From a virus (Duplodnaviria; Caudoviricetes), in the IMG/VR virus record IMGVR_UViG_3300044580_000088, positions 1 through 40,766 of that record: 40,766 nt of DNA, one strand, 5' to 3'. Below the pieces are notes generated by a model. That model was not told the DNA's origin. It ran no database searches and saw only the letters and a program-made list of their open reading frames with translations. Made by a program: the position numbers and the translations under genes. Below, piece by piece: positions 2 through 36,854 of this stretch (positions are counted from its first letter, which is position 1; each line of letters begins with the position of its first letter).

Positions 2-604
2 CGTTCCCAGGCTATTGAGGGCCGATTCGATTGACGGGATCGTATTGGCCACCAGATCGTCGCGCAGGGCGTCGGCGCTTGCCGGCGAGTCTCCAGGGTC
101 CGTGATGTCATGGGTCGTGGATGCGTCTGCCTCGTGGGCTTGTTGTTTGAGCTTGAGGCCGTCCGAATCTACAGCGATCCCGTAGTTTGGCTTCAGCTTC
201 ACGCTGAGGCCATTGCTGTCCAGAAGGATCCCGTGGTCTGCGTACACCTTCGCCTTGAGCCCACCTGTTCCAAGGACGAGGCCCGGGTCGGTGTCCAGAA
301 GAATCGACGTCCCATTGATGTCAACCTGGAGTCCTGAGTTAGTAGCCAGCTTGATCGAGATCCCTGTAGTGGATCCGACTTGCAGCCCACCGGTTTGGCT
401 GAGCTTGATGTTGAGATATCCGGACGCCTTCTCGAGTCCATACAAAATGTTCAGCGTCAGGACATCGTCGGACCCGAAGCTGAAGACGTCACCAATCTTG
501 GCGCTCCCGATCCCATCCTCGAACATCTCGGTAAGGATGATCTTGACCTTCGCGACGATGTCCTCTACGGTTTCCCCTGAAATCGGTACAGGCAGTTGCG
601 GCAT
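2..604 (-). CDS. Fibre protein with triple beta-spiral-like repeats (3' end runs off window)
   Basis: Not in the ORF track. ATG overlaps the TAA of the giant gene (TAATG) and the frame is open to the edge: MPQLPVPISGETVEDIVAKV...LNIKLSQTGGLQVGSTTGISIKLATNSGLQVDING...SALNSLGT. Confidence 0.8.
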   Translation of the reverse strand, partial: MPQLPVPISGETVEDIVAKVKIILTEMFEDGIGSAKIGDVFSFGSDDVLTLNILYGLEKASGYLNIKLSQTGGLQVGSTTGISIKLATNSGLQVDINGTSILLDTDPGLVLGTGGLKAKVYADHGILLDSNGLSVKLKPNYGIAVDSDGLKLKQQAHEADASTTHDITDPGDSPASADALRDDLVANTIPSIESALNSLGT

Positions 605-3600
605 TATTCGTACAGTCCTTTCAGTTCATTGGCTAGGCCCCTCATTGGCTTGGAAGGCCTCCTCGGGCGGCCCCGCTCGCGCAGGGCTCCGGCAAGGTTT
701 ACCTGGAGTTGCGGACGGCCTTCTGTTACGACCCGGGCGTTCCAGGCCTCGACCTCATTGCGAACAGCGTCCATTTCCTTCTGGTTGCCGTCCCGCTGGG
801 CGTTGGCATATCGGCTTGCCCACTTCGCCCTCTTGGCTGCCACGAATTTCGTAAGGTCTTCGATCTTCTCGTTGATGTCCCAGGCCTTTGAGCTGCTCAG
901 GGGCTGGAATCCTGCGGCCTTTCCAATGGCTTCCGGCAGGGATATTCTCCTGGCCTCCGATTCGCCGGGCAACGTCAGCGGCTGGCCGCTGATGGTATAG
1001 GCGCCCTCCCCGTAAAGCCGTGCCGCCGCAACCGCATTCGCGATGAAGCGCGGTGCCATGGCCTCCACGGCTCGGGACGCATCCCCGTACTGGTACGCCT
1101 CAATGGCCTTGGCCGGATCGTCGATGAGTATCGAATATGGCACGCCGACCAGGGATGCAACGGGGTTATCCGGGTTGTGAAACTCGATGGAGAGCGACCC
1201 GCTGATATCCACTCCCAATGCGGCCGGTGCCCCATACACCACGAGATCGCGCCAGAGGTTCCGGTTGGCTCCCGTCGATTCCGGCACCATCTCGCGTGCA
1301 GCACTTTCCGGATCCCGGCCGAGCATCCGCCTGGAGATCCGGCTTATTGTGCCAAAGAACGGCAGGCTCGAGATCCCCCCGAGGATCAGCAGGGCCAGCA
1401 GGGATCGCATGATGGCGCGGTATCCTCGTCTCTGCTTGGCCATCCATCCCAGCAACTGCAGGTATTGGTGCGAAAAACTCTGCAGAGCATAGGCAGATCG
1501 TCCAAACTTCGCGCCCACGCTCGGCCCTCTGGCCCAGGTCGGCAGGTTTGCCTTGCCCATGACGAAGTGCGTATCGTTGACGATCTCCTCGGCGTAGGCC
1601 TTGGCCTTTTCGTAGGGCCAGGGCTTCCCCTTTTCCATCCCGTACCGCTTCAGCGTGTCCGGGTTCACGATCTTGCCGTCCTTGGCGATGCGGTACGCCG
1701 CGAGGCCAGTGGAGATACGGTTGAACCGCTCCGGCAGGGCCATGGTCAGCCCCAGGACATCAACGGCCCGGTTTAGCGTGTTGCCGATCCGGGTACCGAT
1801 TCGCCCCTTGATCTCCTGGTTGAACTGGTCCGATGCCACGCCCTCGAGCACGAGCTCAGTAACGACCCTGAGTTCGTCTGCGGAGAGCCGCTTGCCCTTG
1901 GTGATGGCCCCGACAATAGCTTTCCGCGCTGCCGAGAGGTACATCGCGCCGGCCCAACGGGCATCGATTGACATGCGCGGGACGGCGGCAACCACGTTCT
2001 GCGTCAGGTTCACGACGCCGCTCTTGATGACGCCGGCAAGATACTTGACGTAGATCGCGGTGCGAAGCGTGTCGGCCGCCGCGTCCAGGCGATCCGCATT
2101 CGACAGGGCGTCCCGGACATAGTCCGAGGCGTACTTCCAGCGCCGCGGCTCCTTCTTGGCCCGCAGGTCGCGGAGAACCTCGGAGTGCTTCCTGGATGCC
2201 TCCATCTTGGTCAACCAGCCGTTGAGCCCCGCGAAGTATTCGTGCAGGATCCGCTTGATGTCGCGCTTCTCGTGTCCGGGAATGTCGCGGCGCCGGATCA
2301 TGTGGGCCCCCCATCCCCTGGACTTGATGACATCCGCAATGGCTTCTGGCATGGCCTTCTCAAAGAGCTGTCGAGCGGCCGGATCCCCGACCCTCTCGGC
2401 CGCGGCGTAGATGACCTGCTCCATGGCCTCGATGGGAATGGGGTAATCGTAGATTTCGTCAGGAAGTTTCGTGACAGGGGCAATCTTCCATTCTACGGCC
2501 TCGGGGTACTGAGGCTTGATCTTCGCCAGGAGCCTTTCTCCCCTGGTGCTTACCTTGGGCGTGTCGTAATAGTGGCTGCGGTAGACAATCTTTCCCTCCG
2601 CATCATAGCCACGGATGGACCAGTTTCCGTAGCGGACATGGGGAAAGTAGTTTGGAATCTGCCCGATGGACTTCCGGAGACGCTCGATCACGGAGTCCTC
2701 GATGTCCTTCATGCGACTCTGGGCGTTGAATGCCTTGGCCAGAGAGCGGTCAAGGCCTTTCCGCAGGGCGACATATACGTCCGCGATGTCCTTGTATTTG
2801 GTCTTTTCCAGGGCCGCCTTCATCTGGTCGAAATGCTCCTGGTTGAGCGCCCTGATTCCCGGACGCCCCTCGGCATTTTTCCCCCAGACGAAGCGGGACG
2901 CCGTCACGCCCTGCAGTTGCTTGCCGTCGAGCTTCCAGATCAGCTCGATCAGGAGGTCGAGCTTCTTGCCGCGGAGATCGAACACGGGCTTGACGGCCTC
3001 GAGATCCTCGTGAATGGCCTTTGTTCTCGACTTGTTGCGCTCCAGCTCAATACTGACCAGACGGGCCAGATCCTCCTCGCCCGGTTTCTTCGACAAAAAC
3101 CACGGGTTGTGCCACAGCTCCTCGATGACAGATATGTCCTTTTGGGGAGCGACGGTAATGCCGCGCTTGATCCGGTTCCAGGCCCTGAGCAGCGAAGTTC
3201 CGGACAGCGGGGCCCCCTCTGCGGCCGGCTTGCGGGTGGCATACTTGGCCGGAGGATCCAGCTCCAGCAGCCCGTCCGATGCGGCGCGTAACACCTCGTC
3301 AACAATCGTAACGTGCTCCTTGGGCTTGATGGCGCTGCTCACCAGGAGCGACGTTGCCAGCTCAACCTGCTCAACGGGGCTTTTCTTCAGGAAGCTTGCC
3401 GAAACGTCTACGAGGCCTGATCCGCTCGGACGCGCCACGCCCTGGAGAATCTGAATCGTCTGGGGGTAATAGTCTCCCAGGTCCGGCTTGCCGAAGCCCT
3501 TTTGCTTGGCGTTTTGCGCCATCGAAATCCCCTTGCGCCCCCTCGTTCCAGAGTTGCCGAGCCTGAGGAAGCACTGAGGGCATCCCATCTCGCAGAACGG

Positions 3601-6600
3601 CTCGTCGGTGACGCCAACAATGGGGGCGCCGGCGGCGTCCGGGTAGGTGAGATGCTGGCAGTTTCGGCAGCTCGGGCATCCCTCATGGAACAGGTCGCAG
3701 TACTCGATGGGCCCGGGCTCGATGAGATCCAGCACGGCCGCATCCAGTTGCCGGCTCGTCGGCCACCACCAGGTGCCCCCGCGCTCCTCGATGAACGCCT
3801 TCTCGTCTTTAAGGGACGAGAGGTAGGCCTCGGCCTCTTCTCTCGTTTTAAATCCCTGCAGCCCTTTTTTGCGGCTGTTGACGATGGTCAGCACATTGTA
3901 TGAGCTCGGCCCGTACAGGTTCTTTGCCGTATCCCATCCGTTGGCCCGGAACAGCGCGGCCATGGCATCCGGCTTGCGCGGAACCCATGGCGTCCAGTCC
4001 ATCCAGGTGCGCGGGTCTTCGCCGCGGGGACGCGGGTTTTCAATCCACCAGTCACCGAATTCCGGATGCTTGGGGTCAGTAGGAACGAAGTTCGTGAAGC
4101 GGGCCAGGGACCATGGATGCTTTGCCCGGTACGTCGTGATCAGGACGTGCGCCCCGATCTCGCGGGCATAGTTGATCGCCTTTGCAACGGCCCTCGTTAC
4201 CTCCGGGGATCCGTTCAGCACGGGCTTGACCCGCACGGCCCTGATGACCGAGTCCCAGCTCGGGTCGGGGCGCTTGAAGTTTGTCAGATGGGGATTTCCC
4301 GTTACCATCAACGGGTAGGAGAGATTGGCCGGGCGAGGTCGAGAGAGGTCGGGTTGAGTTATCGGCAGATTCAGAAATACTTGCGGTTCTAGCCCGCGAG
4401 CGGTTTCAGGAATGGCCGTCCTCTCGACCCCTCCCTCGATAAGTCGCCCGGTTTCTGCGGATGCCTTGCCCTCTCTTATAGCAGGATAAAGGATTTTGTC
4501 AAGCCTTTCTCTGCGGATCCCGGTGACCGCCGGCGTATTGAGCACGCCCTCGCGGATGACGACCTGGGACGGTTCGATCTTCGGCAGAAGGGCAAAGTTG
4601 CCGATCTTGCGGATCTCATTGTATTGCTGGAACTTTTCAACGGCTTTGCGGATGCCTGCCTCTGACACGCCAGCGCGCCTGGCTTGGCGCACGAACTCCT
4701 GGGCCATGGCCTTGGTGATGGGCCTTGAAGCCATAATGGCGTCAGTGATGGCAGGGACGCTGACCTCTTTTTCGCCGCTGAAGTTTCTGATCGCGTAGTC
4801 TGCCGCATCGCGGAAGATCGTCTTGCCGGCCTCGGTGGCGTCCCGTCGTGCGGTCCGTTCCCAGATCTTTCCAGAGCTGACCTTGTCGTAGACGGTCCGG
4901 AAGCTGGGGAAGAAGAATTCCTTCAGGCGCTGGAAGAAATTGCGGATGCGCTGGTAGAGGTTCTGCAGCCACGTCTGGCGTTCCCGCCTCTCTCGCTTCC
5001 CGGCCTGCTCGTGCGCCCAGTTGCCGTAGTCCTCTGCCGCGGCCTCCTCGGATCCGAATTCTTCCTCGAGGCGCTTTCGCTCCCCGTCTGTCATTACGAG
5101 GTCCCAAGCCGCATGGAATGCTTCGTGGTGCGTATCGGCGGGGGAGGAGAGATCGGTGTAGGTCAGGATCCCGTGGGGGCCCACTTGGCGCCAGGATGCG
5201 GCGGCCACCACGCCAGGCCGCAAATCTTTGCCGGTTGCGGCCTTGTAGTCCACGGGGTTGATGATGATCTTGCTTTTCCAGTCCACCAGGACCTTGGTCC
5301 CGTTGGGCATGGTGAGCATGAAGGCCCAGCGCGGGCCCCTCTCCGTTTGGAGGAGCTCGGCAGGGCCTATCTCTGCGGAAGGGAATGCGGCCCGGATAGC
5401 CTTGTGCGCGGCTTCCTGGCTTTCGGCGATGCTGTCCGGCAGCGGATTGCGCTCGATGATCCCGATGATCTCGTTCAGGATCCTGTCGAGCGGGTCGATG
5501 ATTCCGGGCAGTTCGGTCTGGACGTAGCTTACAGGAGTTGCTTGTCCGGCGGACTCTTCATGTATTGTCGCATCTCCGCCAGCGCCTCTCTCTGGTGCTG
5601 ACGGAGCTTTTCCTGCTCGAGCTCGCTCAATAAGCACGTCTCTGTTTGCGTTGATCGTCCTGGCTTCGGACTCGGTGAGGCCTTCGGGCGGGACTTTTTC
5701 CCCGTAGATAGTTTCAAGGACGGCTGGGAGATCATGTTTGAAATTCTCCTTCAGTTTGCCGAGGGTGTCAAGGGATATTTTCAGGTTCGAGCCGAATGTG
5801 CCCTGGGCCATGGCGTGGATCCCGATGACGGTGGCGCCGTTGTTCTCCAGGTATCCTTTCAGGCCGGCCAGGGTGGATCCCGTGGTCGTGACATCATCCA
5901 CAATGACGGCCAGCTCGCCGGTGACCTTCCCGCCGAATTCGGGCTGGCGCATCAGCCGCTCCATCGCCGTGGCGCCGGTATGATGCACGATGTTTTTTTG
6001 GATGACATCCGTATTCACCGGCCAGCCCGTCAATTCGGAGATATAGGCGGCCATGGCCAGGGGGATCTGGTTGATGCCGCCGGCCTCGATCGCGTTAACG
6101 GGGTAGACCACGACGCTACGGCCCGCATAGGCCATGGCCAGGGCCCGGACCTTTTCGGCGTTCATCAGGTCCATGGCAAGGTTCGCTGCCGCCTTGCGAT
6201 CCCCGCTCTTGGCCGCCTCGTAGTCCTTGTGGCCGCGCATCTTGTTGTAGCCGGTGTGGATTACGGCCTTGGCGGTCCGGTCTGTCCAGGGCGTGCGGGT
6301 TGCGTACTTTTCCGCTTTTGCGGTGGCTCCAGGGACCTCAAAATCCCCCCGCAACGGCATCACTATGGCCTTCAGCTCGCCATCGACGCGGAATTGCACG
6401 GGCTTGCTGAATTGGTTTTTGCTGTCTTCGACTTGGCTGACCCGTGCGTCCGGGAAATGGCTCCGGATTAACTTGAGGTAATCTGCATTGATCGCGACTG
6501 TCTTGCCAGCAGCATCGGCGAAGACGGCCTGCTGCGAAGCCGGCGACTCCACTCTCGCCATGACGTAATGCAGCTCCCGTCCTGGCTCCTTGGGCAAAAC

Positions 6601-9600
6601 AGCCGCATAATTCGGCGGGTCGTATTCTTTCCGCTCCTTCGCGACATGCTCTCCCGCCATTTTGGCTATTTCGTCATCTGTCTTGTCCGGCTCGCATTTG
6701 CGGAAGAATTTTGCGGCTTTCTGCTCCTGCCTGCGCCAATAGCCATCGCGCAGTTTCTTCGCGATCTTCTCGTCGATGATGAGCCAATGGCCATTTGACG
6801 CATACGGTCCGCTCTTGTCGCTGCTCAGTCTCAGACTTTCGTCCCAATCTCTATCAACCGTGTACTTCTTGGCGAGATCGGTGACCTCCTTTTCGGAGAT
6901 CTCCGTGGAGATGATCGGTCCGTCCTCAGCCAGGCTTCTTTTTTCGGCCGGAGTCAAGGCCGAAAAGTTTTTGCCGTGCTTTTTCTGGGCGAGATCGTCA
7001 AGATCGGAACGGCTGAAGTTCCGCGCCGGCTTCTGCTCGGCCTGCTTTTTAGCCTTGGCGGCCGGCGCTGGCGCCTTGGCGACATCAATCGCCGTGTCCA
7101 GGCTGACGCCCTTGCGGAGCTGCTCGAGGGCGACTTTGCGCCGTTCACCGCTCGGCACGCCCCTTCTGTCCAGGTATGCAGAAACAGCCACGAAATGGTC
7201 CTTGACCGTGACGTAGTCGGAGCCAAGGTTCATCCGGTCGGATGCGATCCCGGCGCCGATATGATCGGCAACCTCTTGGGGCAGCCCAGGGAATTCCTTC
7301 TTGACAGACCCGGAATACGTCCGGGCCCACTCCTCGAGTTCGACCTTGGTGCGCTCGAAATCAGCCATCTCGGGCTTTTTTGTTTCCGCTGGACCGGCCC
7401 ATTGATTGTTTGATTTCAGTGCTTTTGTCGTGCCAATGGCTTTCTCGATAGCCTTGTCTCGAGAGTATTCAAAATCTATGAGCGTCGATTTTTCTCCCTT
7501 GCTGTCAATGACCGGATACTTGATCGTGTAGGATGCTTCTGCCCCTTTCCCTCTCTCAATAATGGTAACGCCGGCCGGGATCTGCGGATCTTCGATAACC
7601 TTTCCGCCCGCGGCATCCTGCCGACGGATTTCCTCTTTGCTCTCTGGTCCCGCTTTCTTTTCCGGCATCGGAGAGGCGGGGACTTTTTTGGTCCGGATCC
7701 CTCTCTCCCCAGAAGGCCCCTTGCTACCTTCGATCTTCTCCTGCATGGCCCTGGCGTCGCCGCCGGCGTCAGCTATTTCATTGTAGGTCGCCCTGTAAAC
7801 ATCCTGCAGAGCATCGAGCTCATCGGCCAGGCGGTTCCTCTTTGCTCCCTTTGCTGCCTCAACGGCCTTGATCAGTCCCTGGATGGCTTCCCACCGGCCC
7901 GCCTGCTCTGCCTCTGCAGTCGCCATCAGGTCCTTCAGATTGTCGCCTTCGTATCTGGACCCACGCCTGGCATTCTGCCCTCTTCCCTCCAGGAAGCGCT
8001 CAATCTTTCCGAGCTTGGCTTCCAGGCGGCTGATCTCCGGTTGACGCTTGGCCATCTCAGATTCAAGGACATGCCTCTCCTGGGCCCTGGTAAGGTTCGC
8101 CTTGCCGTGTACGGCCCTTTTTCCCCTATTGCTGCTGGCGACGGCATGGGCCCTCGTCTTGAGATCCTCGATCTTCTTCCGGATCTCGTCAGCCTGCTGC
8201 CGCAACCGCTCCGCGTGCTCCTCTTTCCCCTTCTCCCGAGCGGCCTTCTTCTGCTCATCGGTCAGTCCGCGGGGGGCCGGAGGCGCAGGCGTTGTTTCCC
8301 GTGAAACCTCCGGCGCTTTTCTGGCCAGGATGTTCTGAACGACCTTGAGCGTCTCTTTCTGCGGTGTCGGGATGGAGACTTCCGGCAGGGAGCCAAGGGC
8401 TTCTCGCTGGCCCTCAGCGAATTGTTCTTCGGAGATCCTGTCTTGGATCCCTTTCCTTGCGGCCCCGCCGCCAGCGATCCACTTTGCGAGAGCCTCGGCC
8501 TCCTTTTTCTTCCCGGCGGCCATGAGTCTGCTGATCTGGAGCCGCTCGGCTGCGTTGGGCTGTACCCTGCCGACAGATGCGGCCAACCCCTCCTCGTAAG
8601 CCGCCCCCTGGGCGGAAAGTTTTCGCCCAGCCTCAGCCTCTGGCCCCTCGATGAGCCTGCGGCCGGCCGGGCCTTCCACCATTCGGCGCCGGCGCATCAG
8701 TTCGTCGAGTTTGGCCTGGTGCTCCGGGGAGAGTCGCGCCCGCTGCTTGAGGATGAAGTCTTTGGAGTAGGGCTCGCCCTTGAGCGTGAAGGGGGCGTCA
8801 GCCATGGTGAACCCGCGGTCTACGCGGGAGCGCTCCTCAAGGGACTGCCGCATGGATTCAAGCGGCTGATGCGTCCATCTGCGTTCCCGTTCCGGGGCCA
8901 GGGGGGCCTCGGGAAACACCTCGTCGCGCAAGGGGTGAATGACCTGCGGCTCCGGTTCGGCGAGACGCTTGCCCCGCACTTCAGACACTCTGGCCCTGGC
9001 AGGCCCCATGTGCTCGGCCGTCACCCTCGCATAAGGATCGATGTCCAAGGCCCGCTTGAGCTGGCCCCACCACGGCTTGTCGGCCACCTTGACGAGCTTC
9101 GTTGCCGGCAACTCGATGGTGAGCCCGTTGAGCACGGCGTTCCGCGCCTGCCCCTCGGGGATGCCGATGTCCTGCATCATGTTGTAGAACTCGGCATCAT
9201 GGGCTTTGGATCCGCGGGTGAAGTAGTCGCGCAGCCGCTGGGCGGGGATCTCAATGGTAGCCCCAGGAGCGACACTCTCCATCCTCTCCCGGAGGTACTT
9301 TTCTTTAAATGGCTCGCTCATCTTGTCCCAGCGGGCGCCCAGCTTGCGTCCGGCAAAGCCCAGGGCCGCGCCCTTGGCGACGAAGTCAATGGCTTCCGTG
9401 AGCGCCACGACGTTCTTGCCGGCTCCTTCCGGCAGCAGCTCTGACAGTCCGCGCTGGTTCAAGAATTCGTAGGGCTGGCCCGTGGCGGCGGAGATGGCTG
9501 CAGATTCGGCCTCGCCAAGTCCGGTGAAGCCGGCTATGGCCTTGAGCGTGGGCCATATGTGTGACTTGAGCGCACCAGCCGGACCCGTTGGGATCGGCAG

Positions 9601-10431
9601 GATCCCACCGGAAATGGCGGCATTCATCAGGAAATTGTAGTAGTCGGACTCCTTGACATCTCTGGCTCCGAACACTTCCTTTGTCAGGCGCTCTCTCAGT
9701 TCCGGATCAGCTTCGATTTCTGATCTCCTGCGTCCAGTAGCGGCCGCCAAGGCATCGATGGCGCTCGCTTGTGCCCTCATGGCACCTTGGTCCTGGAAAA
9801 GGCTCTTCAGCTTGTCCAGGGCCGTTTCAGGAGGAGTCGCACTAATAGCCTCTTGGGTGGTTGGCGGAGTGGTGATCGTCTGGAGGCGCTGTAACAGGGC
9901 TCGCTTCACAACATCCTCTGCCGATACCATGCCGTGCTTGGTGTCATAGGATACCGTCGCGATGGTGTTCTCGCCGCCCATGAATCCAAGGATCCGATTG
10001 ATGTAGTTCTCCGTCTCCACGGGCATGACGCCATGGTTGACTCTCTTCTGGCCGGCGTTGTAGGCCCACAATCCCTTTTCGACGCTGCCGCCGTTTTGTT
10101 CGATTAGTTTGCTGAGGTATCTCGCCCCGGCTAAGACGTTTTCGGATGGGTCATGCGCGTTGGTGACGCCGAGCTCCCTGGCCGTTTCTGGCATGATCTG
10201 CATGAGACCAACGGCCCCCTTTGGCGAGACGGCATTCGGATTGTAGCCTGATTCGGCTCTGATGACGGCGTGGATTAGTTCCGGGTCAAGCCCAGTCTCC
10301 TTTGCGGCGTAGTTGACGATTCCGTTGAAGGGACGTCCATCTGAACTTTCGTTGGCCCCGGATCCATAGATCTCCTCGTCTTTGACTCCGCGCCGGCGGA
10401 GAACTTCGCTGACGATATCAAAGCTGGACAT
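604..10431 (-). CDS. Giant polyvalent internal virion/DNA-ejection protein (SLT, clamp-like, PRTase, zincin peptidase, Cys-cluster domain, helical C-terminal domain)
   Basis: 3275 aa. SLT motifs AVIRAESGYNPNAVSPKGAVGLMQIMP and AYNAG; PRPP loop VIVDDVTTTGST; HHEAFH; CEMGCPQC. Last gene of the ejection cluster. Confidence 0.9.
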   Translation of the reverse strand: MSSFDIVSEVLRRRGVKDEEIYGSGANESSDGRPFNGIVNYAAKETGLDPELIHAVIRAESGYNPNAVSPKGAVGLMQIMPETARELGVTNAHDPSENVLAGARYLSKLIEQNGGSVEKGLWAYNAGQKRVNHGVMPVETENYINRILGFMGGENTIATVSYDTKHGMVSAEDVVKRALLQRLQTITTPPTTQEAISATPPETALDKLKSLFQDQGAMRAQASAIDALAAATGRRRSEIEADPELRERLTKEVFGARDVKESDYYNFLMNAAISGGILPIPTGPAGALKSHIWPTLKAIAGFTGLGEAESAAISAATGQPYEFLNQRGLSELLPEGAGKNVVALTEAIDFVAKGAALGFAGRKLGARWDKMSEPFKEKYLRERMESVAPGATIEIPAQRLRDYFTRGSKAHDAEFYNMMQDIGIPEGQARNAVLNGLTIELPATKLVKVADKPWWGQLKRALDIDPYARVTAEHMGPARARVSEVRGKRLAEPEPQVIHPLRDEVFPEAPLAPERERRWTHQPLESMRQSLEERSRVDRGFTMADAPFTLKGEPYSKDFILKQRARLSPEHQAKLDELMRRRRMVEGPAGRRLIEGPEAEAGRKLSAQGAAYEEGLAASVGRVQPNAAERLQISRLMAAGKKKEAEALAKWIAGGGAARKGIQDRISEEQFAEGQREALGSLPEVSIPTPQKETLKVVQNILARKAPEVSRETTPAPPAPRGLTDEQKKAAREKGKEEHAERLRQQADEIRKKIEDLKTRAHAVASSNRGKRAVHGKANLTRAQERHVLESEMAKRQPEISRLEAKLGKIERFLEGRGQNARRGSRYEGDNLKDLMATAEAEQAGRWEAIQGLIKAVEAAKGAKRNRLADELDALQDVYRATYNEIADAGGDARAMQEKIEGSKGPSGERGIRTKKVPASPMPEKKAGPESKEEIRRQDAAGGKVIEDPQIPAGVTIIERGKGAEASYTIKYPVIDSKGEKSTLIDFEYSRDKAIEKAIGTTKALKSNNQWAGPAETKKPEMADFERTKVELEEWARTYSGSVKKEFPGLPQEVADHIGAGIASDRMNLGSDYVTVKDHFVAVSAYLDRRGVPSGERRKVALEQLRKGVSLDTAIDVAKAPAPAAKAKKQAEQKPARNFSRSDLDDLAQKKHGKNFSALTPAEKRSLAEDGPIISTEISEKEVTDLAKKYTVDRDWDESLRLSSDKSGPYASNGHWLIIDEKIAKKLRDGYWRRQEQKAAKFFRKCEPDKTDDEIAKMAGEHVAKERKEYDPPNYAAVLPKEPGRELHYVMARVESPASQQAVFADAAGKTVAINADYLKLIRSHFPDARVSQVEDSKNQFSKPVQFRVDGELKAIVMPLRGDFEVPGATAKAEKYATRTPWTDRTAKAVIHTGYNKMRGHKDYEAAKSGDRKAAANLAMDLMNAEKVRALAMAYAGRSVVVYPVNAIEAGGINQIPLAMAAYISELTGWPVNTDVIQKNIVHHTGATAMERLMRQPEFGGKVTGELAVIVDDVTTTGSTLAGLKGYLENNGATVIGIHAMAQGTFGSNLKISLDTLGKLKENFKHDLPAVLETIYGEKVPPEGLTESEARTINANRDVLIERARAGKAPSAPERGAGGDATIHEESAGQATPVSYVQTELPGIIDPLDRILNEIIGIIERNPLPDSIAESQEAAHKAIRAAFPSAEIGPAELLQTERGPRWAFMLTMPNGTKVLVDWKSKIIINPVDYKAATGKDLRPGVVAAASWRQVGPHGILTYTDLSSPADTHHEAFHAAWDLVMTDGERKRLEEEFGSEEAAAEDYGNWAHEQAGKRERRERQTWLQNLYQRIRNFFQRLKEFFFPSFRTVYDKVSSGKIWERTARRDATEAGKTIFRDAADYAIRNFSGEKEVSVPAITDAIMASRPITKAMAQEFVRQARRAGVSEAGIRKAVEKFQQYNEIRKIGNFALLPKIEPSQVVIREGVLNTPAVTGIRRERLDKILYPAIREGKASAETGRLIEGGVERTAIPETARGLEPQVFLNLPITQPDLSRPRPANLSYPLMVTGNPHLTNFKRPDPSWDSVIRAVRVKPVLNGSPEVTRAVAKAINYAREIGAHVLITTYRAKHPWSLARFTNFVPTDPKHPEFGDWWIENPRPRGEDPRTWMDWTPWVPRKPDAMAALFRANGWDTAKNLYGPSSYNVLTIVNSRKKGLQGFKTREEAEAYLSSLKDEKAFIEERGGTWWWPTSRQLDAAVLDLIEPGPIEYCDLFHEGCPSCRNCQHLTYPDAAGAPIVGVTDEPFCEMGCPQCFLRLGNSGTRGRKGISMAQNAKQKGFGKPDLGDYYPQTIQILQGVARPSGSGLVDVSASFLKKSPVEQVELATSLLVSSAIKPKEHVTIVDEVLRAASDGLLELDPPAKYATRKPAAEGAPLSGTSLLRAWNRIKRGITVAPQKDISVIEELWHNPWFLSKKPGEEDLARLVSIELERNKSRTKAIHEDLEAVKPVFDLRGKKLDLLIELIWKLDGKQLQGVTASRFVWGKNAEGRPGIRALNQEHFDQMKAALEKTKYKDIADVYVALRKGLDRSLAKAFNAQSRMKDIEDSVIERLRKSIGQIPNYFPHVRYGNWSIRGYDAEGKIVYRSHYYDTPKVSTRGERLLAKIKPQYPEAVEWKIAPVTKLPDEIYDYPIPIEAMEQVIYAAAERVGDPAARQLFEKAMPEAIADVIKSRGWGAHMIRRRDIPGHEKRDIKRILHEYFAGLNGWLTKMEASRKHSEVLRDLRAKKEPRRWKYASDYVRDALSNADRLDAAADTLRTAIYVKYLAGVIKSGVVNLTQNVVAAVPRMSIDARWAGAMYLSAARKAIVGAITKGKRLSADELRVVTELVLEGVASDQFNQEIKGRIGTRIGNTLNRAVDVLGLTMALPERFNRISTGLAAYRIAKDGKIVNPDTLKRYGMEKGKPWPYEKAKAYAEEIVNDTHFVMGKANLPTWARGPSVGAKFGRSAYALQSFSHQYLQLLGWMAKQRRGYRAIMRSLLALLILGGISSLPFFGTISRISRRMLGRDPESAAREMVPESTGANRNLWRDLVVYGAPAALGVDISGSLSIEFHNPDNPVASLVGVPYSILIDDPAKAIEAYQYGDASRAVEAMAPRFIANAVAAARLYGEGAYTISGQPLTLPGESEARRISLPEAIGKAAGFQPLSSSKAWDINEKIEDLTKFVAAKRAKWASRYANAQRDGNQKEMDAVRNEVEAWNARVVTEGRPQLQVNLAGALRERGRPRRPSKPMRGLANELKGLYE

Positions 10432-13070: not shown

Positions 13071-15626
13071 CTAGTCTTCAACGATATCAAACAAAACGTC
13101 CCATGGCATGTAGACCTTGGGCATATATGTATAACCGACGGATTCCCCAGGGTCGCTGACGAAGGTCACGACTATCCGATACGTCTTGCAGCGGGTGTTC
13201 GGCGGGAACGGTATTTCTCCCTTTCCCTCTGTCGTCACCGACCAGTAGGCTATCCCGGATTGACCCCACTTCACCGTGGTAGTGTCTCCGTCCAGGTATA
13301 CGGCGATCCTGGCCTCGCTGTACGGATAGGAACCTCCCCCCGCGCTGTATTTGCCTGGGAAAATGTTGTACCGGAGCTTCTTGAGGACTTTGGTCATGTT
13401 GGCCAGCCTCTGTTCCCCTCCGTTGCGTCGAGGAAAGTACAGGGTCATGCCGGTTGATTGCTCTTCTGTAGAAGAAGTGAATATCCCCGGGTCTGCCAGT
13501 ACATACCCGGAAGCTGTTCCGAATATCTTACCGGAATTTTCCTTGGCTGCATGAGGCTTGACAGCCTCAACGCACGAGAATTCCCCGTATGTTGTGTCAT
13601 CGTATCCTTGGAAGTTAGCCACGCGGATCTCCGGATACCTTGAAAGGTCAAGCATCAATGAGTACCCAGTACCCACGCCGGATATCAAAAGCATTGACCC
13701 TGCTCTGCGGAGTCGTGTCTGGTCCGTCAACGAAAGATCGCGCATAATTCCGTCGATTTGCGGAGAACCTACTCGCACAGCGTTGTCGCCATCGAACACA
13801 TAGAGCCCAGGATATCCGGCATCGTCCCTGGAAATAAATACGATTCCGAATGGCTTTTCCATGAGGCAGACCCATTCCGGATGCTCAGGGCCTATAGTGG
13901 CGCTTGTCTTTTTCATAGACCATGTTGTTGGATCCTCGCCAGCCTTCTTGATCCATCCTCGGGAGTAGCCGATGTAAAGGGTCGTGCCCCAGCTCACGAG
14001 GGCCGTGATGGACTCAAGGCTACCCATGGCGACTGGGCGGATGTCGTTCCAGTTGGTAGCTTTCGTGGCTATCGGAATAATTGTCTCATTATCCGCTCCC
14101 GTGTGCCCGTAGGCTGCCTCAGAGTAATTTAGGCGCCATGGGTATTGATAATCTGCCTCGTAATACCTGCCATAGTGGAATGCGAAGATGTGCCCGTACC
14201 CCATAGGCCTGAAATTTTTGACGTCGCATACTCCGTTTGCGATGAGGCTTGAGTCTGACAGATCGTCAGTATAGGTTTCAGTAGTGTTGTCAGTAATTGT
14301 CGCCACATAGTAGATGTCCGCAAGAGTTCCGCCTGAACCAGGTCCACGGTACAGCTTCCGGTGAATCGTGGGGGGCGTGGATCCAGTAGCCGCGATGGCC
14401 GCGACGACGGCCTTCGGGATGTTAGACCATGAGATCTTTTGGCTAGTCACGGTGACGTCTGAGGATCCATTGCAAAGCCCCGTCTCATACTTCATGCCGT
14501 TTGGATAGGTGATGAGATAGCTGACGTAGAGCTTGTATGTGCCATTTGGATTGCCACCTGCTCCGGCCGCTCCGGACGGTGAGGATCCTGGAGCCGAGAT
14601 GATCGGAAAGTATGCGTTTCCGGAGGCGTCCAGCATCAGGTTGTTCGTCTCGGCGTAGGAATAGACTACCGTTTCATCGAATGAAACGACCAAGACTGGC
14701 CGGTAACTTCCAGTTGTGTCAGCTCCTCCTGAAAATCGAATGTTATTAAACGAGGATCCATCGTCCTTGATCACGGCCATGACTGCATTCCCAGAGCTCC
14801 ATCCAGATCGATTCACAATTTCCTGAAGAATGGTTTTCAGTTCGGGAGTGTTGTGGGCCGAGTTCTCTTCTCCCCAGCTCTCGACGTTGTGCCAGACAAC
14901 GGCACTTGTTAGTGCTAACGCGTTTGCTTCCGAAGTGTTTGTCGGGGCCGTAGCATTGTCAACATTGTTGAAATAGACTTTGGCGTTCACGTTGGATCCG
15001 ACGCTGATATCCATGTAGGCATACAAGGTGATGTGCGCGCTATTGATGATCGAACCTTTCGGAATGGCAACAGCAGGGAAGCGTATGAATGCATGGCGAA
15101 TAATGCCCCAGTTGTCCTGTCCGAAAGAGAAATAGGCTCCTCCAGGGAAGAATGATCCGCTCGGGTTCCAATAGCCAGCGTCAAACCATCCATCGGAACT
15201 GGAAGCCACGGAAACGGATCCTGGGACAAGGACCGTAGCGTACACGCCGTTTTGTGGATAATAGTTCTTCAAGAAAAGGAACTTCTTGTAATACCCGCTT
15301 GTTAGGTACTGTCCATAGGTCATCGTGTGCTTTTCGCTGAATGATCCGGACGCGAACAGCTTGTGGTATATCTTTGAGTTCGACAAGATGAAGCAACTCG
15401 TTGATAGCGCCCAGATCCCATAGATTGGATACCCTGTTGCTGATGGGTCCGCAACATTGAGAGCCGCCCGCGCCTCGAGTTCACCGTCTTTACGGCAAAA
15501 GAAGTTATTTGAGAGTTTACTGACCCCGTAAATATCCTCTTTGTGTGGCAGGAACCCTGGGGCCAGTAGTTCTTCGGAGGCCTCGCACCCGATCCCTTTG
15601 TGTAAGTAGAGCTGCTCGATCTGCAT
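13071..15626 (-). CDS. Tail nozzle/stabilisation-type protein with inserted beta-sandwich domains
   Basis: 851 aa, beta-rich, follows the adaptor gene. Internal AFIRF...IPKGSIINSAHITLY...RPVLVV module and an Ig/FN3-like YKLYVSY...HRKLYR...YTD module. Confidence 0.6.
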   Translation of the reverse strand: MQIEQLYLHKGIGCEASEELLAPGFLPHKEDIYGVSKLSNNFFCRKDGELEARAALNVADPSATGYPIYGIWALSTSCFILSNSKIYHKLFASGSFSEKHTMTYGQYLTSGYYKKFLFLKNYYPQNGVYATVLVPGSVSVASSSDGWFDAGYWNPSGSFFPGGAYFSFGQDNWGIIRHAFIRFPAVAIPKGSIINSAHITLYAYMDISVGSNVNAKVYFNNVDNATAPTNTSEANALALTSAVVWHNVESWGEENSAHNTPELKTILQEIVNRSGWSSGNAVMAVIKDDGSSFNNIRFSGGADTTGSYRPVLVVSFDETVVYSYAETNNLMLDASGNAYFPIISAPGSSPSGAAGAGGNPNGTYKLYVSYLITYPNGMKYETGLCNGSSDVTVTSQKISWSNIPKAVVAAIAATGSTPPTIHRKLYRGPGSGGTLADIYYVATITDNTTETYTDDLSDSSLIANGVCDVKNFRPMGYGHIFAFHYGRYYEADYQYPWRLNYSEAAYGHTGADNETIIPIATKATNWNDIRPVAMGSLESITALVSWGTTLYIGYSRGWIKKAGEDPTTWSMKKTSATIGPEHPEWVCLMEKPFGIVFISRDDAGYPGLYVFDGDNAVRVGSPQIDGIMRDLSLTDQTRLRRAGSMLLISGVGTGYSLMLDLSRYPEIRVANFQGYDDTTYGEFSCVEAVKPHAAKENSGKIFGTASGYVLADPGIFTSSTEEQSTGMTLYFPRRNGGEQRLANMTKVLKKLRYNIFPGKYSAGGGSYPYSEARIAVYLDGDTTTVKWGQSGIAYWSVTTEGKGEIPFPPNTRCKTYRIVVTFVSDPGESVGYTYMPKVYMPWDVLFDIVED

Positions 15627-25706: not shown

Positions 25707-25901
25707 CTACCCCCCTTGCCTTTTCTTCCCCTGCGCGGTCTCGTCGTCCGGGTGCGCCTGCCGCCAGAGCCCGTAGCACTTGCCCAGGCATTCGCGCAGG
25801 GGCTTGCCCGGCTCCTCCTGGCGCAGTACCTGGACGCACCGCTGGATGAATTGAGATCTCGTTTCGCCCTTCGTCGGTTTCGGCATCTTTATCTCCATCA
25901 T
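25707..25901 (-). CDS. Small phage protein
   Basis: MPKPTKGE...FIQRC...CYGLW pattern typical of small phage late proteins. Confidence 0.7.
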   Translation of the reverse strand: MMEIKMPKPTKGETRSQFIQRCVQVLRQEEPGKPLRECLGKCYGLWRQAHPDDETAQGKKRQGG

Positions 25902-26371
25902 ACGAGGAACACATGGTTCCCGATCACTTTCTCAACCGCCATGGATTTTGCCCACCGCGGACATTTTTTCGAGCGGTACAGGGCCCCCGTCATGTAATGC
26001 AGCGCCTCCGTGTTGCGCTTGATCTCGCCGGACAGGAGCTGCCAGGCAAGCCGCGCACACTGCCGCAATGCCTCGTTTCGCGTGCATTCGCCGTCGAATG
26101 TTGCCGCGATGCGGACCGCCTCGTCGTACTGGGGATCCTGCGCGGCCTGCGGCGGAGCGGAGTTCAGCCACGAGAACTGCGCCGGCCTGGTAATAACGCC
26201 GTGAATGCCTGAACCGTACATGCCGTTCCTATCGGCCCTATTGAGGACAACGGATCCGACGCCGATCTTGCCGGCCAAGGGTTCCCCGCGAGCCTCGAAA
26301 TAGATGCACAGGGCCAGGATCTTGTCCTCTGACAGGTCCATGAAATGATGCCGGTCTTCCGCCTTCATCAC
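25898..26371 (-). CDS. SleB/Hydrolase_2-family cell wall hydrolase (probable endolysin)
   Basis: IYFEARGE, VVLNR, QFSW and IGNHVF motifs. Confidence 0.9.
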   Translation of the reverse strand: MMKAEDRHHFMDLSEDKILALCIYFEARGEPLAGKIGVGSVVLNRADRNGMYGSGIHGVITRPAQFSWLNSAPPQAAQDPQYDEAVRIAATFDGECTRNEALRQCARLAWQLLSGEIKRNTEALHYMTGALYRSKKCPRWAKSMAVEKVIGNHVFLV

Positions 26372-28879: not shown

Positions 28880-29893
28880 CTATTGCTGTGCATAGGCGTA
28901 ATATGGATAGGCGCTTGTCCCCGCCGCTACATACTCATCGGCCCCAATATCCCACTGCGCCCCGGAACCGCCGCGATCGTCACCGTCAATATCGTCCTGA
29001 AACGCATAATAAGAATCGTTATAAAGATTGGTTCCGTTGCTCCTTGCTTCTGTGTCGGACGATGATAGGTGATAATCACCGCTTCCGGCAAATGTCACCG
29101 TTTTTGAGCGGTATGCAGAATTGGGAGAAGTGTTATCCGATGATATGTTAGACCCCGATGCATCAGGAGGATCACCAACATAGTTTCCATCACTTGAGGT
29201 GCCCTGTGCGATATTATTGTAAAACCTGACATTTGCGCCACTATAGGAGTAGTTTACGACACAACTTGACGAGCAGTTTACAAGCGTGTTGTTGTAGAGG
29301 CATATATTAACAGCTGCTTCGAGGTAACCTATATTGATGCCATACTCCCAGCCATAGACGATGTTATTGATAACATAAGAGTTGAGTACGTCAATGTTAT
29401 TAATCCCGTAATGGCTTGATGATCCACCTCCACCTGACAGTCGGAGTATGTTGTGCGATATGAGCAAGTACGAGGAGGTCGATTGGGCGGACGAATCTGC
29501 TACGATCCCATTCGCTTGATCCTCCGCAGTATTGTCAATCTGTAATCCTATGATCCTTACATATTGTTCTGCAATGCGTAGTGTCCCTTGGCCCCATGAT
29601 GCAGATGATACAATTCTATATTTGTTGCCCGTCTGCCATGTTCCGTTGTGCCGATAGGATTCAGATGGATCGGTCCATATCTTGATGTATTGTGTAGACG
29701 ATGTCGTCCAGCCGTCAATTGCTACGTAAGTCGTATCCGCAGTACCGCCCGTGCAGCGGCATTTTGCGACTGCGATTTCGTCCCGTGCACCGGTCAGGTC
29801 ACCCTGTTCGCCCGCTTCCCAAGCCGACAGGCTGGTATAGTTGGTGCCTGACCCGTTGTCTGGGTCTACAATTCTGATGACTTCAGTTGCCAT
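28880..29893 (-). CDS. Right-handed beta-helix protein (adhesin/spike-like)
   Basis: YTSLSAWEA start; NNIVY/YNNTL/YNNIA Asn ladders; DYHLSS; WDIGADEY end. Confidence 0.75.
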   Translation of the reverse strand: MATEVIRIVDPDNGSGTNYTSLSAWEAGEQGDLTGARDEIAVAKCRCTGGTADTTYVAIDGWTTSSTQYIKIWTDPSESYRHNGTWQTGNKYRIVSSASWGQGTLRIAEQYVRIIGLQIDNTAEDQANGIVADSSAQSTSSYLLISHNILRLSGGGGSSSHYGINNIDVLNSYVINNIVYGWEYGINIGYLEAAVNICLYNNTLVNCSSSCVVNYSYSGANVRFYNNIAQGTSSDGNYVGDPPDASGSNISSDNTSPNSAYRSKTVTFAGSGDYHLSSSDTEARSNGTNLYNDSYYAFQDDIDGDDRGGSGAQWDIGADEYVAAGTSAYPYYAYAQQ

Positions 29894-30325
29894 TTAGAGG
29901 CTTGCCGTCTCGTCTGTGTTGGTTTTGAGATTACGCAGGTAGCTCCTGACCTGCGTCCATGTATAATCGTGCTTGTCTGCGTAATCACCGACTTTGATGA
30001 TCAACTCGCCGTTGTCCCGCAGTTTCCGCAAGGCCGCAGTAGGCATGTCATCGAGGCGGAATTTCCACAGGCGACGGCGGAAGACCTGGTAACGGCCATC
30101 TGCATCTGCCGTGTCCTCGAGTTCCGGCTCGATGTATTTCTTCACCTTTTCTACGGGCACTCCGGGAAGCTTGATAACGACGAATTTCGGCAGTCGCTCA
30201 TCAAGCCCCCATGTGTGCGTATCCGGCATGACCACCACGGGCATCCCGCGCTTGTAACAGCCCCTGCGGTCCTTCTCGGCATCGGGGTGCGTAGCGTCAA
30301 TCGCCTTGATCAGTATCTGAGCCAT
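29894..30325 (-). CDS. Hypothetical protein, possible partner of the beta-helix gene
   Basis: Start MAQILIKA after GGTGAG; YKRGMPVVV...WG motif. Confidence 0.7.
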   Translation of the reverse strand: MAQILIKAIDATHPDAEKDRRGCYKRGMPVVVMPDTHTWGLDERLPKFVVIKLPGVPVEKVKKYIEPELEDTADADGRYQVFRRRLWKFRLDDMPTAALRKLRDNGELIIKVGDYADKHDYTWTQVRSYLRNLKTNTDETASL

Positions 30326-30350
30326 TATCTCACCAACTTGTAGTCGCACG

Positions 30351-30710
30351 TTACGGTGAGAGTTTGAGACCAGTAGCTCCACTTGGAGCGGCAGGCCTTG
30401 CGAAGGTAAAAACCGCCTCGGCGCTCTCCAACCTACCCCATACCGCATCGTTCTTGTAGGCCTTGACCTTGAGAGTGTGATTGCCGCTCGTTACTGCACC
30501 AACGTCAAACTTGAAACGGACGGTGGACGAAGTAACAGGGTCAGCCGGACTTTCCACCACAGCGCCGTTATCAACAGAAACAGCAAAACCGTCAGGCTGA
30601 GTGGCAGCAGTAGGGTAGGCGTCGCTGACCACGAAGGGCGCGGCCTGAACCTCAAGATTGAATGCCAGGAAGGCCAGGACGAAAACGACGAGAAAAAGGA
30701 TCTTTTTCAC
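30351..30710 (-). CDS. Signal-peptide-bearing Ig/FN3-like protein
   Basis: MKKILFLVVFVLAFLAF...VQA-A signal; GNHTLKVKAY...ES...P-P-GLKL. Confidence 0.7.
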   Translation of the reverse strand: MKKILFLVVFVLAFLAFNLEVQAAPFVVSDAYPTAATQPDGFAVSVDNGAVVESPADPVTSSTVRFKFDVGAVTSGNHTLKVKAYKNDAVWGRLESAEAVFTFARPAAPSGATGLKLSP

Positions 30711-34900: not shown

Positions 34901-35422
34901 TCAGTCCTCCTGCGCCACAGTATTCACCTGCGGGACATTGCGTCCGATGCTGGCCGCGAGTTCGCGGACGGGCCTTCTCCTGACGGCATATTCCGTGGTG
35001 AGGTTTTTTCTCCGGAATCCTGCGAGCATGGCATCCTCAAGCCGCAGGTACTTGGGCATCCTGAGCTGACGGCACCGCCCGCATGGGGCCGTCGCGGATA
35101 TCGGGGTCCTGTACGGGTCCTGGTCTTTTTCCAGGATGAGCCATCCGCTTTCGCAGTCCGGGCAGTCGACGGATTCCTTTCGGGCCCGCTTCTCCGGGTG
35201 CGCCGTCAACCATGCGTTGTACAAACTCCACATGACGGTCGGCAGGTTCTTCGGGAAAGTATCGTTTTCCTCGAATATTTTCCGCTTGATCCAATCCAGG
35301 GATTCCCTGGGGATCGTCTTCACCCGCTCATGCCATAGCTCGAGGGCGTTGTCGTTGGGGATCTTGCGCTCGTAGTAGGTGCATACGGTGCGGATGGTTT
35401 CGGTGAACTCGATCCAGGTCAT
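34901..35422 (-). CDS. Putative helicase loader/inhibitor-type replication protein with Zn finger
   Basis: Coupled to the initiator; N-terminal F...W...FP pattern; CPDC...CGRC. Confidence 0.55.
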   Translation of the reverse strand: MTWIEFTETIRTVCTYYERKIPNDNALELWHERVKTIPRESLDWIKRKIFEENDTFPKNLPTVMWSLYNAWLTAHPEKRARKESVDCPDCESGWLILEKDQDPYRTPISATAPCGRCRQLRMPKYLRLEDAMLAGFRRKNLTTEYAVRRRPVRELAASIGRNVPQVNTVAQED

Positions 35423-36669: not shown

Positions 36670-36854
36670 TTTCTCATCTCCCCGTAAACCTGCCTTTCGG
36701 CGGCGAGCATGGCGCCGCGGATCTCGGCCCGCTTCTCCCGGTCGATCCGGGCCCGGATGTCGAAACCGATGTCCTTCGCCAGTTCCTTGCGGAACGCCTC
36801 AGCAAAAGACTGAATCATCCGCTCGCGGTCGATCGCTTTCTGTGATCGGGTCAT
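36666..36854 (-). CDS. Hypothetical protein
   Basis: ATGA-coupled; MTRSQKAIDRE. Confidence 0.6.
   Translation of the reverse strand: MTRSQKAIDRERMIQSFAEAFRKELAKDIGFDIRARIDREKRAEIRGAMLAAERQVYGEMRK

What the first reader, a model, noticed from the sequence alone, without database searches (positions are those of the whole stretch)
3500..4446. DUF1848-like, permuted radical-SAM-type domain inside a virion protein
Seen: C-x6-C-x2-C-x2-C (3657-3699) followed by CEMGCPQCF, a CxxxCxxC motif (3571-3594) at the END of the domain. Inference from recalled family motifs: the order LIEGGVERTAIP / PITQP / LMVT / VRVKP / terminal CxxGCxxC parallels DUF1848 (IISASRRTDIP / WTKNP / WRYDP / C-terminal CxHGCxYC), a radical-SAM-like family with the cluster motif at the C-terminus. 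An Fe-S enzyme packed in a capsid would suggest an anaerobic host and nucleotide or DNA chemistry on entry.
Basis: partly seen in the sequence, partly recalled or inferred. Interest (0 to 1): 0.82.

Follow-up and report, generated by a model that had tools for sequence, protein, structure and literature searches.

The report
Permuted radical-SAM cargo in phage virion
A giant phage protein that is likely injected with the viral DNA carries a conserved seven-cysteine domain whose parts lie in rotated order compared with relatives in other phages; it is predicted to be an iron-sulfur radical enzyme that would act on nucleic acid at the start of infection.

Summary
Both cysteine motifs are real. 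They lie in a 3275-aa polyvalent protein (604-10431, minus strand) and hold 7 of its 8 cysteines. The domain starts earlier than reported (aa 1957-2316, window 4563-3484). It belongs to an unannotated family: 14 other large proteins with mostly unrelated flanks, plus 47 stand-alone proteins. Six cysteines and several barrel-strand Arg/Lys/Thr/Asn residues are invariant in 62 of 62 sequences. AlphaFold predicts a partial TIM barrel; 18 of the top 50 fold matches are radical-SAM enzymes, all with weak Z (6.9 or less). The new evidence is a five-member family, one member located in a phage head-tail module, with the same parts in canonical order (CxxxCxxC, barrel, four-Cys site). That family aligns colinearly with ordinary radical-SAM profiles, so circular permutation is supported. 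DUF1848 is not the family: there is no HMM match and barrel similarity is weak. GP88 is not either. Against canonical SAM binding, the permuted form lacks the aromatic residue before the third Cys and the GGE motif. Best reading: an injected two-cluster radical enzyme acting on nucleic acid, probably the entering phage DNA. Activity, substrate, packaging and host are untested.

The parts
604..10431 (-). 3275-aa polyvalent protein, likely virion-borne ejection protein; last large gene of a head/short-tail module
   Evidence: SLT, PRTase and internal-virion PHROG matches; capsid, adaptor and terminase genes upstream on the same strand
3277..4767 (-). Mobile cassette of about 500 aa (aa ~1889-2385): catalytic core plus N- and C-terminal extensions
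   Evidence: 37-53% identity over about this span in 13 of 14 relatives (77% in P0012); 12 of the 14 share little or nothing else with P0001
3484..4563 (-). Core domain aa 1957-2316, co-extensive with the stand-alone family: barrel, four-Cys site, CxxxCxxC, N-x-K tail
   Evidence: alignment A2; profile match at 3475-4566, E 8e-72; AlphaFold pLDDT 92, pTM 0.90
3913..4563 (-). Predicted barrel strands equivalent to radical-SAM beta2-beta6, with R1960, F2019/N2021, T2044/N2046, R2067/K2069, T2099/R2102, Y2173
   Evidence: conservation; secondary structure; fold matches that start after the Cys motif of MoaA, SPL and GDGT-MAS
4399..4488 (-).
   Evidence: gap in the stand-alone rows shown
3784..3909 (-). 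42-aa hairpin-helix insert, present in 2 of 15 large proteins; weak likeness to an Arm DNA-binding domain
   Evidence: Pfam PF14657 E 0.02, below cut-off; strand-strand-helix in the model
3658..3699 (-). Four-Cys site C-x6-CxxCxxC; predicted auxiliary [4Fe-4S] or Zn site
   Evidence: aligns weakly to the C-terminal four-Cys site of the unpermuted family, P 0.003-0.02
3571..3594 (-). CxxxCxxC; predicted SAM-binding [4Fe-4S] site, moved to the C-terminus
   Evidence: aligns to the N-terminal motif of the unpermuted family, probability 85%
3496..3513 (-). Invariant N-x-K, then mostly Q-x-G, closing the domain
   Evidence: N2307 and K2309 in 62 of 62
10033..10317 (-). SLT lytic transglycosylase domain, aa 39-133
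   Evidence: Pfam PF01464 E 4.5e-27
5641..6273 (-). Phosphoribosyltransferase-like domain, aa ~1387-1597
   Evidence: Pfam PF00156 E 3.5e-6; phrog_22413 E 2e-39
5113..5127 (-). HExxH motif at aa 1769; possible zincin-type processing peptidase
   Evidence: sequence; role inferred from PMC5512222 passages
733..2754 (-). C-terminal region shared with other giant phage proteins, function unknown
   Evidence: phrog_11358 E 6e-26

Best explanation
The domain is a circularly permuted relative of a phage family with canonical radical-SAM order, and is predicted to be a two-cluster radical-SAM enzyme that is likely injected with the genome and would act on nucleic acid, most likely the entering phage DNA. 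Steps: (1) shown: conserved mobile cassette under purifying selection, with stand-alone relatives; (2) shown by profile comparison: order barrel / four-Cys site / CxxxCxxC here, against CxxxCxxC / barrel / four-Cys site in the unpermuted family; (3) predicted: partial TIM barrel; (4) inferred, about 0.7: CxxxCxxC binds a [4Fe-4S] cluster that cleaves SAM to a 5'-deoxyadenosyl radical, with the four-Cys site as an electron relay; (5) inferred, about 0.75: packaged and ejected, perhaps cut free by the HExxH peptidase; (6) inferred, about 0.6 for any nucleic-acid or nucleotide substrate, DNA favoured: the invariant Arg/Lys at the strand ends hold phosphate groups, and hydrogen abstraction modifies or repairs a base, protecting the DNA from host defence before phage genes are expressed.
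For: Motifs and invariance; 34 synonymous vs 12 non-synonymous changes. Models at pLDDT 92 and 96; 18 of the top 50 VIA matches are radical-SAM enzymes, best NifB Z 6.9, rmsd 3.8, 148 aligned. The MoaA match starts at residue 64-65, just before beta2 and after its Cys24-31 motif; the SPL match starts at 131, after its motif at 90. Unpermuted family: found by the A2 profile in 1 of 401 genomes (E 4e-5), five members. Stand-alone barrel vs this family: probability 92%, score 50.4, 0 of 20 column shuffles as high, maximum 22.2; motif part to template 3-42, barrel to 51-253, four-Cys site to 360-389. The unpermuted family aligns colinearly over 163 columns with a small canonical radical-SAM set (probability 71%, its G-[ED]-P on GGEP, its S-x-D on the beta4 S-x-D), and its Atlas neighbours are radical-SAM clusters at 0.93. 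One unpermuted gene lies in a portal-capsid-tail module. Net charge of the domain is +6 to +18 in 15 of 15 large proteins. P0017 carries a second, canonical radical-SAM domain. Precedent for phage radical-SAM chemistry on DNA: M6 gp53 (PMC8989533).
Against: No activity, cluster or virion data. All fold Z-scores are under 8, where the tool warns of common arrangements, and Foldseek found nothing at E 0.001 or better; ordinary TIM barrels fill the other ranks, and some radical-SAM matches (PylB, BlsE, PqqE) start before their motif by my recall of their numbering. The residue before the third Cys is D, Q, G, S, N or E in 62 of 62, never aromatic, and GGE is replaced; both are recalled SAM-binding features. 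With only the 15 large-protein rows the barrel match to the unpermuted family drops to probability 10%; the link rests on the stand-alone members and is strongest at beta5-beta6. The Atlas gave the permuted domain no radical-SAM neighbour (best 0.80), and its count of shared features for the unpermuted hits is low (123-136 of 256). The barrel is no closer to SPL-like enzymes than shuffles (1 of 20 as high). Only 3 stand-alone neighbourhoods were seen and they share no partner gene. A SAM cluster is oxygen-sensitive and no host is known.
Confidence: 0.4

Rival explanations
1. A radical-SAM enzyme for a free nucleotide (MoaA- or viperin-like): it converts an NTP or an immune second messenger and so disarms nucleotide-signalling defence on entry.
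For: Invariant basic residues on beta2, beta5 and beta6 recall the triphosphate-binding barrels of MoaA and viperin (residue roles recalled; the MoaA strand sequences are seen). Polyvalent relatives carry other nucleotide enzymes: PRTase here and in P0013, 2H phosphoesterase in P0006.
Against: No profile or fold preference for MoaA or viperin over other radical-SAM enzymes; co-occurrence in polyvalent proteins does not imply one pathway (PMC5512222).
Confidence: 0.2
2. A radical-SAM-derived fold that no longer cleaves SAM: an Fe-S or Zn protein that binds nucleic acid or senses redox state.
For: No aromatic before the third Cys in 62 of 62 and no GGE; no radical-SAM HMM match; CxxCxxC plus one Cys can bind Zn, as in alcohol dehydrogenase (recalled).
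Against: Three-Cys CxxxCxxC invariant in 62 of 62, with polar residues invariant at the barrel mouth; GDGT-MAS is a proven radical-SAM enzyme without that aromatic (sequence; PMC9433317); G-[ED]-P is kept in 5 of 5 unpermuted relatives.
Confidence: 0.2
3. A radical-SAM enzyme with a protein substrate (activase-like), modifying a host or phage protein after injection.
For: Small stand-alone size (216-264 aa); PFL-activase among fold matches (Z 5.3-5.6); Atlas neighbours of the unpermuted form include small Fer4_12 radical-SAM clusters.
Against: Basic, invariant barrel residues and net positive charge favour a polyanion; no conserved partner gene in 3 neighbourhoods.
Confidence: 0.1
4. A true DUF1848 member.
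For: Same C-terminal motif position; barrel score 22.4 exceeds all 20 shuffles; beta4, beta5 and the last motif in register at probability 24%.
Against: No Pfam match; signature words absent; a much closer unpermuted family exists, while DUF1848 itself matches SPL-like proteins at 94%, which points to a separate permutation.
Confidence: 0.05

Closest known systems
Radical-SAM superfamily (Pfam PF04055; MoaA 1tv7, NifB 7jmb, QueE, PFL-activase)
   Same: CxxxCxxC; predicted partial TIM barrel whose first strand matches beta2; beta4 T-x-N in the place of S-x-D; unpermuted relatives align colinearly.
   Different: Motif moved behind the barrel and a four-Cys site; no GGE; no aromatic before the third Cys; no HMM match; embedded in a likely virion protein.
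DUF1848 (PF08902)
   Same: CxxxCxxC at the C-terminus of a barrel, with further Cys before it.
   Different: No HMM match; barrel similarity weak; different Cys pattern before the motif; DUF1848 is close to SPL-like proteins, this family is not.
Spore photoproduct lyase and phage M6 gp53 (PMC8989533, passages)
   Same: Radical-SAM chemistry on DNA bases, one of them phage-encoded: the functional model for the best reading. The unpermuted family aligns weakly with PA0069/SPL-like proteins (probability 38%).
   Different: Motif before the barrel; gp53 acts in a four-gene hypermodification cluster, whereas no such cluster was seen here; the permuted barrel scores at shuffle level against SPL-like proteins.
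GDGT-MAS/Tes and TrsS (7tol; NF045702, NF045646; PMC9433317, passages)
   Same: An auxiliary Cys cluster about 20-30 residues before the SAM motif; best PDB sequence hit (E 0.045); C-terminal part matches TrsS at 82%.
   Different: Their auxiliary site is CxxxCxxC plus His and precedes an unpermuted barrel; barrel similarity at shuffle level. The adjacency here arises from permutation, so the likeness is probably convergent.
GP88 (PF17338)
   Same: Small phage proteins with an N-terminal N-x-K and Cys motif, as in the unpermuted family.
   Different: No profile similarity to either form (probability under 3%).
Phage polyvalent proteins (Iyer et al. 2017, PMC5512222, passages)
   Same: Giant late-gene protein joining lysozyme, PRTase and metallopeptidase motifs; relatives carry LPD22, LPD23, LPD38, 2H and ART/PARP-like domains.
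   Different: The main text has no 'radical', 'iron', 'Fe-S', 'cysteine' or 'S-adenosyl'; its FTP supplement was not seen.

Membership tests
Radical-SAM superfamily | Three-Cys CxxxCxxC motif | tested here: met
   62 of 62
Radical-SAM superfamily | Partial TIM barrel of radical-SAM type | tested here: inconclusive
   Barrel predicted with high confidence; 18 of 50 matches radical-SAM but Z 6.9 or less; indirect support through the unpermuted family
Radical-SAM superfamily | [quoted passage not shown] | tested here: not met
   C-terminal here; N-terminal in 5 of 5 unpermuted relatives
Radical-SAM superfamily | Aromatic residue before the third Cys (recalled SAM-adenine contact) | tested here: not met
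   0 of 62; an aromatic follows the third Cys in 62 of 62
Radical-SAM superfamily | GGE motif after beta2 (recalled methionine contact) | tested here: not met
   Replaced in the permuted form; G-[ED]-P in 5 of 5 unpermuted relatives
Radical-SAM superfamily | Match to PF04055 or an NCBIfam radical-SAM model above cut-off | tested here: not met
   0 of 62; only single-member hits at E 0.005-0.1 to TrsS, Tes and PA0069 (one search showed 25 of 29 families)
Radical-SAM superfamily | [4Fe-4S] cluster and reductive SAM cleavage | not testable with these tools
   needs biochemistry
DUF1848 (PF08902) | Pfam HMM match | tested here: not met
   control proteins score 296-357 bits
DUF1848 (PF08902) | C-terminal CxxxCxxC | tested here: met
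   motif part matches at 77%
DUF1848 (PF08902) | Barrel sequence similarity | tested here: inconclusive
   score 22.4, P 0.012, shuffled maximum 18.9 of 20
GP88 (PF17338) | HMM or profile match | tested here: not met
   barrel score 13.0, 13 of 20 shuffles as high; 4 of 4 reference proteins checked were GP88
SPL / PA0069-like | Barrel profile similarity | tested here: inconclusive
   permuted barrel 19.4, 1 of 20 shuffles as high; unpermuted family 38%
Tes / TrsS | N-terminal rubredoxin and auxiliary cluster before an unpermuted barrel | tested here: not met
   order differs; barrel 23.9, 1 of 20 shuffles as high
Phage polyvalent proteins | Large multidomain protein of unrelated enzymes among virion genes | tested here: met
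Phage polyvalent proteins | Packaged and injected with DNA | not testable with these tools
   inferred from gene position and the N-terminal SLT

The most novel reading that the evidence does not exclude
Phages of anoxic habitats package working radical-SAM enzymes in the capsid and inject them. This family is a self-contained two-cluster radical enzyme, captured by ejection proteins in two circularly permuted forms, that rewrites or repairs the entering DNA (or destroys an immune nucleotide) before any phage gene is expressed.
Probability: 0.3. Interest if true: 0.88.

Novelty: new variant of a known kind. Interest (0 to 1): 0.68.

Why it matters
My searches found no described radical-SAM enzyme carried in a virion, and the main text of the polyvalent-protein catalogue does not mention one. 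If active, this adds oxygen-sensitive radical chemistry to what phages deliver at entry, and points to an unknown counter-defence reaction in anaerobic communities such as digesters. It also gives a natural pair of circular permutants of the radical-SAM fold that motif-and-HMM annotation misses in both forms. The 230-aa stand-alone members make the chemistry directly testable.

Tried and rejected
Pfam, PHROGs and NCBIfam scans of the domain and its family gave no hit above cut-off; phrog_2834 (15 weak members) is a 78-position model that did not land on the family's genes. Foldseek on PDB and viral models: nothing at E 0.001 or better. Atlas on the permuted domain: best 0.80, fucose isomerase, rejected. 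No match in annotated phages or plasmids. Stand-alone genes not found in genome contigs; viral scans gave 3 loci. GP88 not found in 401 and 5 genomes, so a reference set was collected by motif. P0048 (E 4.5e-4) is a repeat protein, dropped. An HMM of the 42-aa insert found no further copy, including in the unpermuted family. Host search failed: capsid matches 33% identity or less. No relative was found with another enzyme swapped into this slot. RNA-run contigs cover only the ends of the region and cannot show expression. The tree is a quick one on 39 of 62 rows: large-protein forms fall on one branch, unrooted, with a long-branch warning. Rows left out of reference sets: DUF1848 59 kept of 120 loci; GP88 82 of 120; SPL-like 13 of 16; TrsS 8 of 9; the canonical set is only 6 sequences and one (L138) may be the wrong ORF.


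Full report
Setting. The window is a 40,766-base virus record. On the minus strand it carries terminase, capsid and adaptor genes and, at the end of the module, two ORFs of about 335 aa and a 3275-aa ORF at 604-10431. That protein has an N-terminal SLT domain, a PRTase domain, an HExxH motif at aa 1769 and a C-terminal region shared with other giant phage proteins. This fits the polyvalent proteins of Iyer et al. 2017 (PMC5512222, passages read), which those authors infer to be packaged and injected. Packaging here is inference.

Observation. Both motifs are present: C-x6-CxxCxxC at 3699-3658 and CxxxCxxC at 3594-3571. They hold 7 of the protein's 8 Cys; 0 of 200,000 random placements cluster seven so tightly. 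One diverged allele shows 34 synonymous and 12 non-synonymous changes, none at invariant columns. Two DNA runs span the region in one contig.

Family. Searches gave 14 other large proteins with the whole domain and 47 stand-alone proteins of about 216-264 aa. In the 62-row alignment T2044, N2046, R2067, K2069, L2097, T2099, R2102, six Cys, N2307 and K2309 are invariant; R1960 is in 61 of 62. The large proteins share a cassette of about 500 aa at 37-53% identity (77% in P0012); 12 of the 14 share little or nothing else with the window's protein. Their other domains include LPD22, LPD23, LPD38, 2H phosphoesterase, PARP-like and, in P0017, a canonical radical-SAM domain. No library names the family.

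Fold. AlphaFold models reach pLDDT 92 (window) and 96 (stand-alone P0059) with alternating strands and helices. Foldseek found nothing significant. VIA-align lists TIM-type barrels; 18 of the top 50 for the stand-alone model are radical-SAM enzymes, best NifB at Z 6.9, and the window model gives Z 5.1 for NifB. These scores are weak on their own. The ranges are informative: model residue 1 pairs with MoaA 65, just before beta2 and after Cys24-31; with SPL 131, after its motif at 90; and the window model pairs with GDGT-MAS from 132, after its clusters. Some other matches begin earlier.

Permutation. The family profile hit 1 of 401 genomes drawn from the phylum of L050, a record titled Syntrophobacter. 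The gene lies between capsid and tail genes of a phage-like contig and has four relatives at 48-64% identity. In all five the order is CxxxCxxC, barrel, four-Cys site. Comparing parts separately, the window-anchored motif part aligns to template 3-42 (probability 85%), the barrel to 51-253 (89%) and the four-Cys site to 360-389 (11%). The stand-alone barrel scores 50.4 against a shuffled maximum of 22.2. Using only the 15 large proteins the barrel match is weak (10%). The unpermuted family aligns colinearly with a six-sequence canonical radical-SAM set (71%, 163 columns, GEP on GGEP) and has radical-SAM Atlas neighbours at 0.93. The chain window domain - stand-alone family - unpermuted family - canonical radical SAM is therefore supported, each link by profile evidence of moderate strength.

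Not DUF1848, not GP88. Reference sets were gathered and spot-checked by Pfam. Barrel scores against 20 shuffles each: DUF1848 22.4 (maximum 18.9), TrsS 23.9 (28.1), SPL-like 19.4 (20.8), GP88 13.0 (20.5), canonical set 15.4 (14.9). DUF1848 may be a distant cousin, but it matches SPL-like proteins at 94% and looks like a separate permutation. The likeness of the C-terminal Cys pair to GDGT-MAS is best read as convergence, since the adjacency arises from the permutation.

Mechanism. By established radical-SAM chemistry (PMC2996862, passages), CxxxCxxC would bind a [4Fe-4S] cluster whose free iron chelates SAM. The four-Cys site would be a second cluster or Zn. The invariant polar residues sit on or just after the predicted strands, and four are Arg/Lys; the domain is basic. 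That suggests a phosphate-rich substrate. I favour the entering DNA because the enzyme would arrive with it and because phage radical chemistry on DNA has a precedent in M6 gp53. Weaker hints are a possible DNA-binding insert (E 0.02) and ligase, NADAR, RlaP and methylase genes near one stand-alone gene and a WGR-ligase near another; three neighbourhoods are too few to weigh much. A free nucleotide is the main rival. Against catalysis as usual, the aromatic before the third Cys and the GGE motif are missing.

Habitat. The 14 best DNA holders are labelled sludge, bioreactor sludge, wastewater, anaerobic digester, biogas fermenter or plain metagenome; 8 may be the source. The other 6 come from 5 studies. 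This is compatible with an anaerobic host but does not show one, and the host was not found.

Literature. Ten searches (listings only) showed no paper whose title or abstract describes this family or a virion-packaged radical-SAM enzyme. PMC5512222 and PMC7824862 have no radical-SAM mention in their main text. DUF1848 appears once beside UG25 reverse transcriptases (bioRxiv 10.1101/2021.12.02.470933, one passage). Supplements were not read; the library lacks most subscription papers. One unreviewed note from this scan (e1-8692024) reports a GP88-like domain on another ejection protein; it is a lead, not evidence, and I did not check it.

Verdict. A real, conserved, unannotated, circularly permuted radical-SAM-type cassette in a likely injected phage protein. 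New variant of a known kind; interest 0.68; function inferred, not shown.

Noticed in passing
L167:7755-9866 (G562:C124) and P0082-P0085: Unpermuted form of the family, also unannotated by Pfam/NCBIfam; in L167 it lies between capsid and tail genes, and its N-terminus resembles the upstream 427-aa gene (E 1.4e-8).
   Followed up: yes
window 3496-3513: The invariant N-x-K follows CxxxCxxC here, whereas an N-x-K precedes the motif in the unpermuted family and many GP88 proteins; a single circular permutation does not explain this.
   Followed up: no
window 3784-3909: Hairpin-helix insert in 2 of 15 large proteins; 4 of 5 unpermuted proteins have an insert in the same slot (between beta6 and the four-Cys site), with no detectable sequence similarity.
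   Followed up: partly
P0017 aa 438-587: A polyvalent relative carries a second, canonical radical-SAM domain with weak likeness to B12-dependent and methylthiotransferase families.
   Followed up: partly
P0012 aa ~2067: First Cys of the four-Cys site is Ser in the closest distinct relative; either a three-ligand site is tolerated or it is a sequence error.
   Followed up: no
window ~5480-8280 (aa 718-1650): Close relatives are 88-93% identical at both ends of the giant protein but show no match at aa 718-1024, and L002 only 57% at aa 1025-1651: a variable middle.
   Followed up: no
L009:1756-14754: Stand-alone gene in a 175-kb phage among RNA ligase, cytosine methylase, DUF932, DnaQ-like exonuclease, NADAR, RlaP and NAD-dependent ligase genes.
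   Followed up: partly
L010:7974-10594 and L008:5620-7239: Stand-alone gene near a WGR-ATP-ligase in a 467-kb record; another lies divergent from terminase genes.
   Followed up: partly
P0005, P0023: Database copies of this gene that shift frame inside the domain; P0005 has an adapter-like peptide at the break (recalled), so probably assembly artefacts.
   Followed up: no
window 25898-26371, 35419-36231, 36851-37339: Cell-wall hydrolase (Hydrolase_2), replication initiator and RusA genes.
   Followed up: no
window 13071-15626 and 28880-30710: Lower-GC stretches (about 52% against 60%) over an 851-aa structural gene and a tail-region gene set; possibly recently exchanged.
   Followed up: no
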